This document shows positions 27,570-30,500 of a stretch of 64,000 nucleotides of DNA, piece after piece. A program made the position numbers and the translations under genes. Source of the stretch: an uncultured Kiritimatiellota bacterium (lineage in GTDB: Bacteria > Verrucomicrobiota > Kiritimatiellia > RFP12 > UBA1067); assembly GCA_934635385.1 (NCBI GenBank), contig CAKTZI010000002.1, positions 71,772 through 135,771 on the forward strand, given 5' to 3'. How positions within the stretch are numbered: the first letter of the stretch is position 1; every line of letters begins with the position of its first letter. The notes under the pieces were generated by a model, which saw only the letters and a program-made list of their open reading frames with translations, made no database searches and was not told the origin of the DNA.

Positions 27570-30500
27570 ATGAAATGTCTGTTGTTTTCCGTTGCCTTGG
27601 CACAGGGCCTGACGGTTGCCGCATCCGTTCCGTCCGTTGTCCCCGCCGGGGACATCGCGACCGTGACCAACGGCGCATCGCTTGCGCAGACGACGCTGGT
27701 TGAAGGCGAACTGCGCGTGGTGCCAGGTGAATCGGAAATGGCGCTCCCGCTCGCGCAGCTGGACGGGCGCGGCGCGGTTGTCGTGCCGTCCGGCGAGGTG
27801 GCCCTTCAGGGGGGGGGGGGGGGGGGGTATGTGCCCTTGATTCCGAGCAACGTGCTTACGAAGGCCGCGCTCTGGGCGGATGCCTCGGTCGCTGACACCG
27901 TGCAGTTCGTGGAGAGCTCGACGGTGCAGGTTCGGCAGTGGCTTGACTGCCGCGAGCCGGACGTGACGCTCACGGGTGAGGCGGACGCCTACGCCTATAC
28001 GCGGCTCGTCGCCTACACGAACGTGTCGCAGCACGCCTCCGAAGACGTCGCGACATGGTTCCCGACGTATGTCGCGGCGGCGGACGGCGCGAACGCCTAC
28101 CTCGACTTCGGCGGCTTTGGCAGCGGGCAGAACCTGCGGTGCCTTGACAAGAGCGGCCAGGAGACGCGCGTTTGGAACGTCAGGTGGGCCTTCGCCGTCT
28201 ATGGCACGGAGGACTACAAGTGGGGTTTTCTGTTCAGCGAGAAGGGATCGTCCTTTGTGCCGGGAAGCTATAGCCAGAAAGGCTTCAGCGAGACAAGGTA
28301 TTATGCGCACCTGAACGACTCGGACAACACGAAGCGCATCCAGACAGGGCGGTTCCGCTGTGACCGGGAGATCGTCAATCCGCTGACGACTTCTTTGACG
28401 GAGGGCTTTCACCTCATCGACTTTCCGATCCCGATGGGCGATTTCCACGTCGAGGGCGTGTTCGACAACTTGGGCAACGCGGGCCGTCAGGGCGGCGGTC
28501 GTCTCTGCGAGATCGTGCTTTTCTCCGTCGAACTTTCCGAGGCGGAGCGCGTGGCGGTCGAGAACTACCTCTACCGCAAGTGGGTGGACAAGATGTCGGA
28601 AGTCAACCTGACGGTTGGCGCGGCGGCGACGGTGCGTCTGAATGGCGAGTCGGGCGTGCGCCTGAACGTCACGGGCGCCGGCAGTCTCGTCAAGACGGGC
28701 GACGGCACGTTGACGGGGGGCGCGTTGGACGGGCAGGAGGCGACGACGCCCCAGCACATCCGCCTGGAGTCCGGGGCGATCGATTCGTCGCGCGCGGTTG
28801 CGCTCGTCGCGGCGGCGGCGGCGAATTACGAGACGGCGACCGGCAAGGTGGCGCGCACGTCCGCGACGGCGGACGGAACGCTCACGAAGACGGGCGACGA
28901 GGATCTGCGCATCGCGTCGCTGGCGGACGACGTGCAGGCGATTGACGTCCAGTCGGGCGTCTTGCGCCTGGTGCCGTCGGAGGCGGGCGACTTGCCGGCG
29001 AATCTCGTCGGCGCGATCGAGGACCCGTCCTTCGAGGCGTTTGCCGAGCAGAACATCAACTCGGCCAGCTACATCGGAAAGGAGTTGGACACGGCAAGCG
29101 CCCTGCACGGCTGGAAGGGGACGGGCGTCGGGACGCAGAAACCCTATGTCGTCAAGTGGAATGAGGACGGCGGGTATTTCAACGAGAAGGGCGTGCCGTT
29201 CCCGGACGGCGACCATGCGATGGTCCTGCACATCGACGCCGGCTGCCAGACGACGGTGACGCTCCCGTCGGCGGGCGTCTACCGCCTGTCCCTCTGGGCG
29301 GCGGCTCGGCCCGACAGCAACGGCGCTTATCGGCGCGGCGAGTTCCGCGTGTCCGTGGACGGCATCCCCGTCGCGCAGGTCCAGCTGGCCACGACGGCTT
29401 ATCGGAAGTACGCCTTTCGTCTGCCGTATCTCGCGGCGGGTGCGCATACGCTCGTCTTCCAGGCCGACAGCCAGAACAACAAGAACAACAGCGGGCTGAG
29501 TTCAAACCTCGTCTGCATGTTCGACAACGTGCAGGTTGACTGGCTCGCGTCGGACGATCCGGGGGCAACGGTCGCGAACGGCGGCTTCGAGCTGAACGGC
29601 TTCCAGTTCAAGTCGCTGGTCGCGACGAACGCGGTCGAGAGCTGGACGGTCTCGGCAACGGGCGACGCGAGCGGCGTATATCTCGTCTCGGCGGACAGTC
29701 CGGCCCTGGCGCTGGGCGCGAGCGCGTCCGTCAAAGTCCCTGAAATCCCCGAAGGCGGCCGCGCGCTCGTCCTTTCCGGCACGCCGAAGCTGACGGGCAC
29801 GGCGACCTTCACGCAGACCGGAACCTACAGCCTCACGTTCGCGCTGGGCGGCTTGTGGGAGAAGGGCAAGATCACGTTGTTGCCGACGCTCGGCTTCACG
29901 TTGGGCTCGCTGCTGGACGCCACGGCGACGGTTTCGCTGTCGTCGCGGTATCCGCAGACTTTTGCGCTGGGGCCGATCGCCGTGACGGAAGACGACCTGA
30001 ACAAGGCGCAGACGCTGGAGATCGCGGGCCTCACGGCGGGTGCTGTCGCGTTTCTCGATGACGTGCGCCTTGTGCGGACGACACGCGTCGTCAACAGCTT
30101 CGCGTCGGACGGCTGGACGAAGGTCCAGCCGGCATCGGACATCCATGACGGCAGCGGCGTCGTCCTCTGGATGACCAAGGACGACATCTCCTGGGGCTCG
30201 GTGCGCTACGACGACGCCTGCCGCGTCGGCATCCGCAATCGCGGGGCCATCCATCGCACGGAGCGTCTGACGGCCGGGGCTTACCGGCTCACGGTGGCGA
30301 GCCTCGGACGGTTCTTCCGCTACAACGACCAGCCCGAAGATCTCGCCCAGTGCTACAGCGACAATCGCTTCGAGGCGTGGTTCGGCACGACGGACGGTGC
30401 AGTCACGAACGTCATCGGGCAGTTCGGCGTCACGCATGCCGAGCGCTGGCAGCAGCACTCCTTCTACTTCACGGTGCCGGAAGACGGCGACTGGCTGATC

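What the first reader, a model, noticed from the sequence alone, without database searches (positions are those of the whole stretch)
27809..27827. G19 homopolymer inside a 1082-aa PATR/LamG surface-protein gene (candidate phase-variation switch)
A run of 19 consecutive G lies in-frame, encoding QGGGGGGY, inside the signal-peptide-bearing 27570-30818 gene.

- Why it stands out: in a genome that is already GC-rich, a tract this long is extreme.
- Consequence: any gain or loss of one G truncates the protein after about 85 aa. That is the classic slipped-strand ON/OFF switch of surface adhesins.
- Related tract: the first gene of the 2.6-6.2 kb secreted operon carries a shorter G8 run at 3245-3252.
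- Context: the gene is the first of a glycan-utilisation locus and is divergent from a XylR-like regulator, so variation could gate surface display.
Basis: partly seen in the sequence, partly recalled or inferred. Interest (0 to 1): 0.7.

Follow-up and report, generated by a model that had tools for sequence, protein, structure and literature searches.

The report
Hypermutable poly-G switch in secreted glycan-binding gene
A run of 19 G's near the start of a secreted, sugar-binding-type protein gene of an uncultured gut Kiritimatiellia bacterium is real, differs in length between related strains, knocks the gene out of frame in some of them and breaks most assemblies, so it is most likely a textbook slipped-strand ON/OFF switch in a bacterial group where none has been described.

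Summary
G19 lies at 27809-27827, in frame (CAG (GGG)6 TAT), 80 codons into a 1082-aa gene with a signal peptide. It is the only homopolymer longer than 8 in 64 kb.

It behaves like a DNA-level mutable tract, not a poly-glycine requirement:
- GGG is only 20% of Gly codons here.
- 61-63%-identity orthologues have an interrupted ACGGGCGGGACATTCGCC of the same length and are always intact.
- The tract-bearing clade shows G19 (in frame), at least G20 (same strain), G13 (out of frame), G7 and G6.
- That clade also carries an insertion at the run, a 5' replacement and an extra 1-nt deletion.
- Five contigs end at or within about 15 nt of the site.
- A 38% orthologue carries an independent, out-of-frame G9 elsewhere in the gene.

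Loss of one G stops translation at residue 89; gain of one G stops it at residue 108.

The gene heads a GH92/GH2/GH63-like operon and is divergent from a XylR-like regulator.

Not supported:
- The PATR/LamG label has no Pfam hit; the fold is multi-CBM-like beta-sandwich.
- The G8 tract is invariant in 7 contigs.

Switching within a population was not testable, and the exact count of 19 is unreliable.

Verdict: a new member of a known kind, of moderate interest.

The parts
27809..27827 (+). G19 homopolymer, in frame (last base of CAG plus six GGG codons). This is the proposed slipped-strand mutable tract.
   Evidence: Searches show the sequence and the run census. One search gives the frameshift consequences. 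One search shows GGG is 20% of Gly codons, so P(6xGGG | 6 Gly) is about 7e-5. One search aligns the site across assemblies.
27570..30818 (+). 1082-aa secreted, all-beta, multi-CBM-like protein gene that carries the tract at codons 80-86.
   Evidence: One search lists the ORF. Searches give only a weak DUF642 hit. Searches show the orthologue family in gut and rumen Kiritimatiellia. Searches give the AF2 model (mean pLDDT 72) and Foldseek hits to tandem CBM and beta-sandwich modules.
27570..27626 (+). Predicted N-terminal signal peptide (MKCLLFSVALAQGLTVAAS). It is separated from the body of the protein by any frameshift at the tract.
   Evidence: Read directly from the translation. An equivalent hydrophobic N-terminus is present in the orthologues. 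No signal-peptide predictor was run.
27553..27558 (+). AAGGAG ribosome-binding site, 10 nt upstream of the ATG.
   Evidence: The same motif is conserved in L001 and L020.
26125..27393 (-). Divergent XylR-like regulator (periplasmic-binding-protein-like sensor domain plus AraC-type HTH).
   Evidence: The exact 422-aa product is present in 7 contigs.
27394..27569 (.). 176-nt divergent intergenic region, presumed to hold the promoters and operator.
   Evidence: No sigma-70 consensus match was found. An AAAAAGATAG-like motif is shared with L013 and L007, by inspection only.
30942..33776 (+). Second gene of the locus: a 944-aa secreted protein with a Laminin_G_3 domain and a weak GHL10 match.
33773..34582 (+). 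269-aa protein with no family assignment. Its start overlaps the stop of the previous gene.
   Evidence: It is conserved in L001 and L002.
34741..36519 (+). MGH1-like (GH63-type) glycoside hydrolase.
36582..40520 (+). GH92 alpha-mannosidase-family protein (1312 aa).
   Evidence: E = 1.6e-162.
40462..43152 (+). GH2 beta-mannosidase-like protein (896 aa). It is the last gene of the co-oriented glycan-utilisation cluster.

Best explanation
The G19 run is a genuine, lineage-specific hypermutable homopolymer, that is, a contingency or phase-variation tract. It sits in the 5' part of a gene for a secreted, carbohydrate-binding-module-rich protein. That gene leads a mannoside/N-glycan-type utilisation operon in an uncultured gut Kiritimatiellia bacterium.

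Proposed mechanism:
- Slipped-strand mispairing during replication adds or removes G's.
- Lengths of 3n+1 (16, 19, 22) keep the frame and only change a Gly loop.
- Any other length separates the signal peptide and first 80 residues from the remaining roughly 1000 residues and terminates translation at residue 89 or 108. This is the OFF state.
- Premature termination in the first cistron may also lower expression of the downstream hydrolase genes by polarity.
- A second slip restores the frame.

Shown here:
- The tract and its frame.
- The truncation products.
- The non-random codon choice.
- Length polymorphism and out-of-frame alleles among related assemblies.
- Intact genes wherever the tract is absent.
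- An independent tract in a distant orthologue.

Inferred:
- The high switching rate within a population, and its reversibility.
- The polar effect on downstream genes.
- Surface location of the protein.
- The selective agent (phage, antibody or nutrient regime).
For: (1) Tract and frame.

(2) DNA-level selection:
- GGG is 122 of 601 Gly codons in ten genes of the window.
- The five other Gly-Gly-Gly tripeptides all use mixed or GGC codons.

(3) The tract is derived, and its ON length matches the ancestral spacing. The 61-63% orthologues (P0003-6, L007) read LE-TGGTFA-Y, encoded by ACGGGCGGGACATTCGCC (18 nt). The window has 18 G's and the same L-to-Y spacing.

(4) Length polymorphism at the homologous site:
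- Window: G19, in frame.
- L015: 100% identical to window 25826-27827, then carries a 20th G and ends.
- L001 (about 90% aa, 92.7% nt identity): G13 splits the gene into 107-aa and 995-aa ORFs. G12 or G15 would restore the frame.
- L004: G7.
- L020/L016: G6.

(5) Assemblies break at the site:
- L002, L005, L008 and L015 end in the tract or within about 15 nt of it.
- By coordinates, a fifth contig, NODE_4485 of ERZ4568013, ends at about window 27828, where NODE_5302 (L005) of the same sample begins.
- None of these is on record: the exact 1082-aa product, its 988-aa downstream ORF, or a near-identical N-terminal fragment.
- Both neighbouring genes are present exactly in 4-7 contigs.

(6) All 20 orthologues at 36-63% identity are called full length, whereas every hit at 77-89% identity is 5'-truncated. 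The tract's absence was checked directly in P0003-P0008 and L007, and no G run of 8 or more lies in the other orthologue loci fetched, apart from L013.

(7) Independent recurrence. The UBA3624 orthologue (L013) has a G9 at a different codon (about 400), assembled out of frame. G8 or G11 restores an ORF of about 1106 aa that aligns end to end with P0010.

(8) The Gly6 lies in a low-confidence loop (pLDDT below 50 at residues 83-85), so in-frame length changes should be tolerated.

(9) Precedent. Gonococcal pgtA has a poly-G of 9-20 in variable alleles and an interrupted GGGAGCGGGG in constitutive alleles (PMC2193922). Campylobacter surveys use a cut-off of at least 7 G/C for such tracts (PMC6321876).
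Against: - No read-level data were available, so heterogeneity within one population and reversibility are unproven.
- All lengths come from short-read metagenome assemblies, which are error-prone at long G runs. The G13 'OFF' call in L001 and the 20th G at the end of L015 could each be off by one.
- It is unknown how the window's assembly crossed a site where all other assemblies of this strain break, so '19' and 'in frame' may be partly fortuitous.
- Several relatives carry irreversible lesions in the same region: a 10-bp-duplication insertion, a replaced 5' end, and a 1-nt deletion shared by L002-4. These fit plain gene decay as well as fluctuating selection.
- Only one such long tract lies in the 64 kb, and the G8 at 3245 is invariant in 7 contigs. 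A genome-wide 'phasome' is therefore not demonstrated.
Confidence: 0.65

Rival explanations
1. Assembly or sequencing artefact. Under this reading the long run, or at least its length of 19 and the in-frame join, is produced by two-colour Illumina poly-G artefacts or by contig merging, and the biological sequence is different.
For: - L005, the same strain, ends at the site in 49 nt of poly-C junk and differs from the window in the 5 nt next to the tract (ACTCT against TATGT).
- All other assemblies of this strain stop at the site.
- The samples are Hadza metagenomes, which I recall (not checked here) were sequenced with two-colour chemistry.
Against: - A G run at the same codon is found in independent samples, assemblers and lineages: L001 G13 spans both flanks in one SPAdes contig, the L015 Logan contig has at least 20 G's, and L002, L004, L016 and L020-22 also carry runs.
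- Random read-end artefacts would not recur at one codon.
- The window's 18-nt Gly block exactly preserves the ancestral L-to-Y spacing.
- Contig breaks at the site are what a real long homopolymer produces.
Confidence: 0.08
2. A mutational hot spot without adaptive switching. The run arose by drift or mutational bias in a GC-rich genome. It simply makes the gene prone to irreversible loss, and the gene is on its way to becoming a pseudogene in this clade.
For: - Irreversible lesions occur in relatives. L002-4 share a non-repeat 1-nt deletion.
- L020/L016 carry an insertion and L017-19 a replaced 5' end.
- No intact copy of the gene is on record anywhere in the tract-bearing clade except the window.
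Against: - The roughly 940-1000 codons downstream of the lesions remain open and 77-90% identical in protein. This argues for recent or recurrent inactivation rather than long-term decay.
- Homopolymers are otherwise strongly avoided in this genome.
- Six identical rare-ish codons are unlikely by drift.
- An independent tract arose in a distant orthologue of the same gene.
Confidence: 0.18
3. A structural or regulatory nucleic-acid element rather than a frameshift switch. Under this reading the G19 forms a G-quadruplex, in the non-template DNA or in the mRNA, that modulates transcription or translation. Alternatively it promotes transcriptional slippage, so that mixed mRNAs are made from one DNA length.
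For: - G19 is exactly the minimum length for a four-tetrad quadruplex with 1-nt loops.
- ViennaRNA with quadruplex terms predicts about -55 kcal/mol for the isolated tract, and -87.5 against -45.0 kcal/mol for the 101-nt region with and without quadruplexes.
- The poly-C junk at the end of L005 is compatible with polymerase stalling on a structured G template (my inference).
Against: - Tract lengths of 6, 7 and 13 in relatives are too short for the same structure, so no conserved length or structure is maintained.
- No Rfam family matches the region.
- A quadruplex would add to, not replace, the frameshift consequences, which follow from the sequence alone.
Confidence: 0.06
4. A functional poly-glycine linker. 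Under this reading selection acts on the protein (a flexible Gly6 hinge) and the homopolymer is incidental.
For: The Gly6 sits in a predicted loop between a strand and a helix.
Against: - Orthologues have TGGTFA or PAESVT at this position, so no poly-Gly is conserved.
- All six codons are GGG although GGC is preferred 3:1.
- Relatives carry out-of-frame lengths.
Confidence: 0.03

Closest known systems
Poly-G translational phase variation of Neisseria gonorrhoeae pgtA (and the lgt genes)
   Same: - An intragenic poly-G tract.
- The number of G's varies widely between isolates; 9-20 is reported for pgtA (PMC2193922).
- Out-of-frame lengths switch the gene off.
- Non-variable alleles carry an interrupted G-rich sequence (GGGAGCGGGG) at the same place. 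This parallels the ACGGGCGGGACA of the tract-less orthologues here.
   Different: - The product here is a secreted multi-CBM-like protein heading a glycoside-hydrolase operon, not a cytoplasmic glycosyltransferase.
- The organism is an uncultured, 65%-GC gut commensal of the PVC group.
- Switching has not been observed experimentally.
Campylobacter poly-G/C 'phasome' (PhasomeIt survey, PMC6321876)
   Same: - Homopolymeric G/C tracts inside ORFs, mostly of surface-structure genes.
- ON and OFF states are inferred from the longest ORF among the three frames.
- The cut-off is at least 7 G/C.
   Different: - Campylobacter genomes are AT-rich and carry tens of tracts, peaking at G9-G10, with 13-15 rare.
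- Here a single G19 lies in 64 kb of a GC-rich genome.
- The genome-wide number of tracts is unknown.
Phase-variable surface and polysaccharide-utilisation functions of gut commensals by invertible promoters (Bacteroides; Akkermansia cps1, PMC13343947)
   Same: - Stochastic ON/OFF of surface or glycan-related functions in a gut commensal.
- Akkermansia is the nearest studied relative, in the PVC superphylum.
   Different: - The mechanism there is site-specific DNA inversion, not repeat slippage.
- No invertase or inverted repeats were looked for or seen at this locus.
Multi-CBM / DUF642 / HpiC1-like beta-sandwich proteins (the protein family of the carrier gene)
   Same: - A weak DUF642 hit at residues 483-614.
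- Orthologues carry PF04862 or PF22825.
- Foldseek matches tandem CBM22, the CBM-rich accessory regions of EngBF, and Cry-protoxin CBM-like domains.
   Different: - No hit reaches a Pfam gathering score in the window's protein.
- No catalytic domain was found.
- Ligand and cellular location are unknown.

Membership tests
SSR-mediated (homopolymeric) translational phase-variable gene / contingency locus | Homopolymeric G/C tract of at least 7 within the reading frame | tested here: met
   G19 lies at codons 80-86 of the 27570-30818 ORF. The cut-off is taken from PMC6321876.
SSR-mediated (homopolymeric) translational phase-variable gene / contingency locus | A gain or loss of one repeat unit causes premature termination | tested here: met
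   One G fewer gives a stop at residue 89. One G more gives a stop at residue 108. A change of 3 keeps the frame.
SSR-mediated (homopolymeric) translational phase-variable gene / contingency locus | Tract length differs between strains or isolates, with both in-frame and out-of-frame alleles | tested here: met
   Lengths seen are 19 (in frame), at least 20 (same strain), 13 (out of frame), 7 and 6. Caveat: all are short-read assemblies and each could be off by one.
SSR-mediated (homopolymeric) translational phase-variable gene / contingency locus | High-frequency, reversible length changes within a clonal population | not testable with these tools
   No reads and no isolates were available. 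The only indirect evidence is that assemblies break at the site.
SSR-mediated (homopolymeric) translational phase-variable gene / contingency locus | The repeat is maintained at DNA level and is not explained by protein or codon preference | tested here: met
   GGG is 20% of Gly codons, and other Gly3 runs use mixed codons. Orthologues have no poly-Gly at this position.
SSR-mediated (homopolymeric) translational phase-variable gene / contingency locus | The product is surface-exposed or otherwise under fluctuating selection | tested here: inconclusive
   The N-terminus is signal-peptide-like and the fold is CBM-like. Recurrent independent 5' disruptions in relatives suggest selection. Cellular location was not determined.
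PATR (autotransporter-associated beta-strand repeat, PF12951) | Significant match to the Pfam PATR model | tested here: not met
   No PATR hit was found, even at E<=10. Only motif-level resemblance (LVKTGDGTLTG) is visible by eye.
Laminin_G_3 / LamG (PF13385) | Significant match to the Pfam model in the tract-bearing gene | tested here: not met
   There is no hit in 27570-30818. The hit (E = 1.5e-13) is in the next gene, 30942-33776. The beta-sandwich fold is compatible with a LamG/ConA-like domain but was not resolved domain by domain.
DUF642 (PF04862) carbohydrate-binding-like domain | Score at or above the Pfam gathering threshold | tested here: inconclusive
   The score is 20.9 bits against a cut-off of 27. 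Orthologues P0017-22 carry precomputed PF04862.
G-quadruplex-forming sequence | Four G-runs of at least 3 separated by short loops, and formation of the structure | tested here: inconclusive
   The sequence rule is met, and the ViennaRNA quadruplex model gives about -55 kcal/mol. Actual folding and any function are not testable here. Relatives' shorter tracts do not conserve the structure.

The most novel reading that the evidence does not exclude
Gut Kiritimatiellia may use lineage-specific poly-G tracts, rather than the invertons known from Bacteroides and Akkermansia, as contingency switches. On this reading the tracts gate a whole glycan-utilisation operon through its leading secreted glycan-binding protein. 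The same protein would be a recurrent target of inactivation, under phage or antibody pressure in the human gut, by three routes: frameshift, an insertion that duplicates the G-run, and 5' replacement. The unusually long G19 could in addition act as a quadruplex and as a preferred insertion target. This would be the first SSR 'phasome' described in Kiritimatiellota or the PVC superphylum.
Probability: 0.3. Interest if true: 0.6.

Novelty: new member of a known kind. Interest (0 to 1): 0.45.

Why it matters
Phase variation by repeat slippage is known almost only from cultured pathogens. Kiritimatiellia are uncultured, glycan-degrading gut and rumen bacteria, and a full-text search found no paper linking them to phase variation.

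If the tract switches, three things follow:
- A commensal's access to a host or dietary glycan would be stochastically gated at the level of one secreted binding protein.
- Strain-level heterogeneity in this locus across Hadza and other gut metagenomes would be explained.
- There is a practical point for MAG users. This kind of site systematically breaks short-read assemblies and produces split or 5'-truncated gene calls. Every database copy in the tract-bearing clade is truncated, so such genes are under-annotated.

Tried and rejected
Searches that found nothing:
- Two scans of JGI metagenome contigs with conserved flanking 26-30-mers found no match. No further alleles were obtained that way.
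- The exact window product, its downstream ORF and FlhB are not on record. I therefore could not retrieve a second contig of this strain that spans the tract.
- The ends of the DNA inserted at the G-run in L020/L016, and the replaced 5' sequence of L017-19, were searched in the window, in all fetched loci and in viral contigs without result.
- A CRISPR-repeat idea for the L017-19 hairpin found no Rfam support.
- No Rfam family and no sigma-70 or terminator consensus lies around the tract.

Readings considered and rejected:
- The PATR and LamG assignments for the carrier gene.
- A link to the G8 tract. Its gene product is identical in 7 contigs.
- A downstream start codon, with the tract in a leader. 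The 80 N-terminal residues and the signal peptide are conserved in orthologues.

Not attempted: whole-genome tract census, mismatch-repair gene content, and domain-by-domain fold searches.
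Full report
**Observation**

Window 27809-27827 is 19 consecutive G. It lies in the ORF 27570-30818 (+, 1082 aa) and is read as CAG followed by six GGG codons and TAT, giving ...VALQGGGGGGYVPLIPS.... The gene has an AAGGAG ribosome-binding site 10 nt upstream of the ATG and a hydrophobic, signal-peptide-like N-terminus.

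The window is 65% G+C, yet homopolymers are strongly avoided. G-run counts fall 766, 170, 28, 4, 1, 1 for lengths 3-8, and the next run is this one at 19. From the base frequencies I calculate about 9e-5 such runs expected by chance in 64 kb.

Removing one G gives a stop after residue 89. Adding one gives a stop after residue 108. Changes of three only alter the Gly count.

**The gene and its surroundings**

Pfam and NCBIfam give no significant family for the 1082-aa protein. The only hit is a sub-threshold DUF642 match (20.9 bits against a cut-off of 27), and there is no PATR or LamG hit even at E<=10.

An AlphaFold model built from 23 family members (mean pLDDT 72) is almost entirely beta. 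Foldseek matches tandem carbohydrate-binding modules and the CBM-rich accessory regions of glycosidases and Cry protoxins. The six glycines lie in a low-confidence loop (residues 83-85) between a strand and a helix.

The neighbourhood is as follows:
- Upstream and divergent: a XylR-like regulator (Peripla_BP_3 + AraC HTH).
- Downstream and co-oriented: a Laminin_G_3/GHL10-like protein, a 269-aa unknown, a GH63-like (MGH1) enzyme, a GH92 alpha-mannosidase-family protein and a GH2 beta-mannosidase-like protein.
- Beyond that: ribosomal protein S1 and SecY.
- Elsewhere in the window: LpxC, FliP and FlhB, so this is chromosomal DNA of a diderm bacterium.

Relatives of the gene come from gut and rumen MAGs labelled Kiritimatiellia, Kiritimatiellaeota, Lentisphaerae or Verrucomicrobia. 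The 'PATR/LamG adhesin' label does not.

**Is the tract a DNA-level feature?**

In ten genes of the window GGG makes up 122 of 601 glycine codons (20%). All five other Gly-Gly-Gly tripeptides use GGC or mixed codons. Six GGG in a row given six glycines has a probability of about 7e-5.

Orthologues at 61-63% identity (P0003-P0006, locus L007) have no poly-Gly. They read LE-TGGTFA-YG, encoded by ACGGGCGGGACATTCGCC. This block is 18 nt, exactly the length of the window's six GGG codons, so the L-to-Y spacing is preserved.

The tract is thus a derived, lineage-specific replacement of an interrupted G-rich stretch. The window's length corresponds to the ancestral in-frame spacing.

**Comparative evidence for instability**

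Every database protein closer than 63% identity is truncated at its 5' end: P0001 995 aa, P0027 1000, P0028 1006, P0031 986, and P0002 and others 938. All 20 more distant orthologues (36-63% identity) are called full length.

The DNA behind these hits shows the following.

- **Same strain as the window, upstream side.** L015 (Logan assembly of ERR7745759) is 100% identical to window 25826-27827. It then carries a 20th G, where the window has T, and ends.
- **Same strain, downstream side.** L005 (Hadza sample ERZ4568013, NODE_5302) is 100% identical to window 27832-38776. It begins at the tract with 49 nt of poly-C junk.
- **Same sample, left contig.** By coordinates, NODE_4485 of that sample ends at about window 27828. 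That assembly therefore broke exactly at the tract.
- **Database gap for this strain.** For this strain the exact 1082-aa product, the 988-aa downstream ORF and any near-identical N-terminal fragment are all absent from the collection. The two flanking genes are recorded exactly in 4 and 7 contigs.
- **The 89-90% lineage.** L001 spans the site in one contig with G13, which splits the gene into overlapping 107-aa and 995-aa ORFs. G12 or G15 would restore the frame.
- **The same lineage, other samples.** The run is G6 and is followed by unrelated, AT-richer DNA. The 10-mer GACAGGGGGG occurs at both junctions. The left junction is seen in L020, L021 and L022 from three assemblies; the right junction is seen in L016. 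This is an insertion with a target duplication at the run.
- **The 77% species.** L002 ends inside the run. L004 has G7 followed by a 55-nt deletion. The GTDB representative L008 ends 10 nt after the site. L017-19 (three contigs, from three assembly records) have the first roughly 88 codons replaced by foreign low-GC sequence. L002-4 share an additional 1-nt deletion about 190 nt downstream.
- **A distant orthologue.** L013 (UBA3624, 38% identity) carries its own G9 at a different position (about codon 400), in a lineage-specific insertion. It is assembled out of frame. G8 or G11 restores an ORF of about 1106 aa that aligns end to end with P0010 at 70% identity.

**Interpretation**

The simplest account of all this is a real, long, hypermutable homopolymer. 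These are the comparative signatures used to call phase-variable (contingency) genes:
- Its length differs between close relatives.
- In-frame and out-of-frame alleles coexist.
- Genes lacking the tract are stable.
- The codon choice is non-random.
- A second tract arose independently in the same gene family.

The closest documented analogue is gonococcal pgtA. There the poly-G ranges from 9 to 20 between isolates, and constitutive alleles carry GGGAGCGGGG instead (PMC2193922). In Campylobacter, tracts of at least 7 G/C are taken as potentially variable, 9-10 is typical, and 13-15 is rare (PMC6321876). G19 is therefore long but within the known range.

I propose the following mechanism. Replication slippage toggles the frame. 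OFF alleles make an 89- or 108-residue peptide and lose the roughly 1000-residue CBM-rich body. Polarity may also dampen the downstream hydrolase genes. This last step, together with surface exposure and the selective agent, is inference.

**Caveats and rivals**

- **No reads were available.** Within-population heterogeneity and reversibility are untested.
- **All lengths come from short-read assemblies.** Long G runs are error-prone there and, with two-colour chemistry, attract poly-G artefacts, as the L005 end shows. The precise number 19, the extra G in L015 and the G13 of L001 could each be wrong by one. It is also unclear how the window's assembly crossed the site.
- **A pure artefact is nevertheless unlikely.** The run recurs at the same codon in different samples, assemblers and lineages, and the window's join preserves the ancestral spacing.
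- **Gene decay.** The irreversible lesions in relatives show that outright loss of the protein's N-terminus also occurs. A 'decaying gene with a mutational hot spot' is the main biological rival. Against it, the 940-1000 codons downstream of each lesion are still open and well conserved.
- **G-quadruplex.** G19 is the minimal four-tetrad length, and the model energy is about -55 kcal/mol. Transcriptional slippage could also add a layer. Neither is conserved in relatives with shorter tracts, and no Rfam family matches the region.
- **The G8 at 3245-3252.** It is invariant in 7 contigs and gives no support for a second switch in this window.

**Novelty and score**

The mechanism is textbook. What is new is the host and the carrier gene. 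The host is uncultured gut Kiritimatiellia: no paper in the searched library links the group to phase variation, and the PVC relative Akkermansia uses invertons (PMC13343947). The carrier is the leading secreted CBM-like protein of a mannoside-type utilisation operon.

I classify it as a new member of a known kind, with interest 0.45. Confidence that the tract is a real hypermutable ON/OFF frameshift site is about 0.65.

Noticed in passing
L020:4245-4301, L021 and L022 3' ends, and L016:1-51 (the site homologous to window 27809-27827): In the 89% lineage, unrelated AT-richer DNA is inserted directly after a G6 run. The 10-mer GACAGGGGGG is present at both junctions, which looks like a target-site duplication or an att core. 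The two known ends are not inverted repeats. The element is unidentified: no match was found in the window, in the fetched loci or in viral contigs.
   Followed up: partly
L017:1-121, L018:1-129, L019:1-130: In the 77% species, the first roughly 88 codons, including the tract site, are replaced by low-GC DNA. This DNA contains the hairpin GTTGCAAACAGCCTTCGGCTGTTCACAAC and a repeated CTGTTCACAAC. All three contigs end within 10 nt of each other, with different bases beyond, so this is the edge of a multi-copy repeat. No Rfam CRISPR-repeat hit was found.
   Followed up: partly
L002:186-205, L003:141-160, L004:502-521 (homologous to window 28015-28034): There is a shared 1-nt deletion (TTCACGAA-GTGTCG against ...GAACGTGTCG) outside any repeat. 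It is a second, irreversible frameshift in one sub-lineage. It is absent from L008, L017-19, L001 and the window.
   Followed up: yes
L013:1565-1573 and L013:300-309: The UBA3624 orthologue (38% identity) has its own G9 inside the gene, out of frame as assembled; G8 or G11 restores about 1106 aa. It also has a G10 about 130 nt upstream of the probable start codon, next to a TTGACG motif. The G10 is a possible promoter-level tract.
   Followed up: partly
L007:2653-2666 and L011:2294-2303: Poly-G runs (C-runs on the coding strand) lie at the 3' end of the XylR-like regulator genes of two relatives. A G14 encodes the C-terminal ...RPPPPR in L007. A G10 sits immediately after the stop codon in L011. 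The window's regulator has no such run.
   Followed up: no
The exact product is present in 7 contigs, so no length variation is evident.
   Followed up: yes
L005:1-53 (Hadza NODE_5302 contig end): The contig end consists of 49 nt of poly-C with two G interruptions, then ACTCT where the window has TATGT. It looks like a sequencing or assembly artefact generated at the tract, possibly dark-cycle calls after stalling on a G-rich template.
   Followed up: partly
window 1-8000: This region has lower G+C (51-59% against about 66% elsewhere). It holds a row of small secreted proteins (2595-6216). The last one ends in a PEP-CTERM-like tail (PEPSSALLLLLGCAGLALKRKK). An AAA_14/DUF4143 ATPase gene lies at 1340-2482. 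The region may be an acquired island.
   Followed up: no
window 30740-30818 (C-terminus of the 1082-aa protein): All orthologues share a conserved C-terminal motif, ...ITGxGALxVxPRGxxxxxR, ending in an invariant Arg. It is not a PEP-CTERM signal and might be an unrecognised sorting or anchoring signal.
   Followed up: no
window 23627-26183: FliP and FlhB (flagellar / type III export apparatus) genes lie directly upstream of the regulator in this Kiritimatiellia genome.
   Followed up: no
L006:1612-1623: An A12 run lies about 270 nt upstream of the 44% orthologue in MAG PUUB15_bin.014.
   Followed up: no
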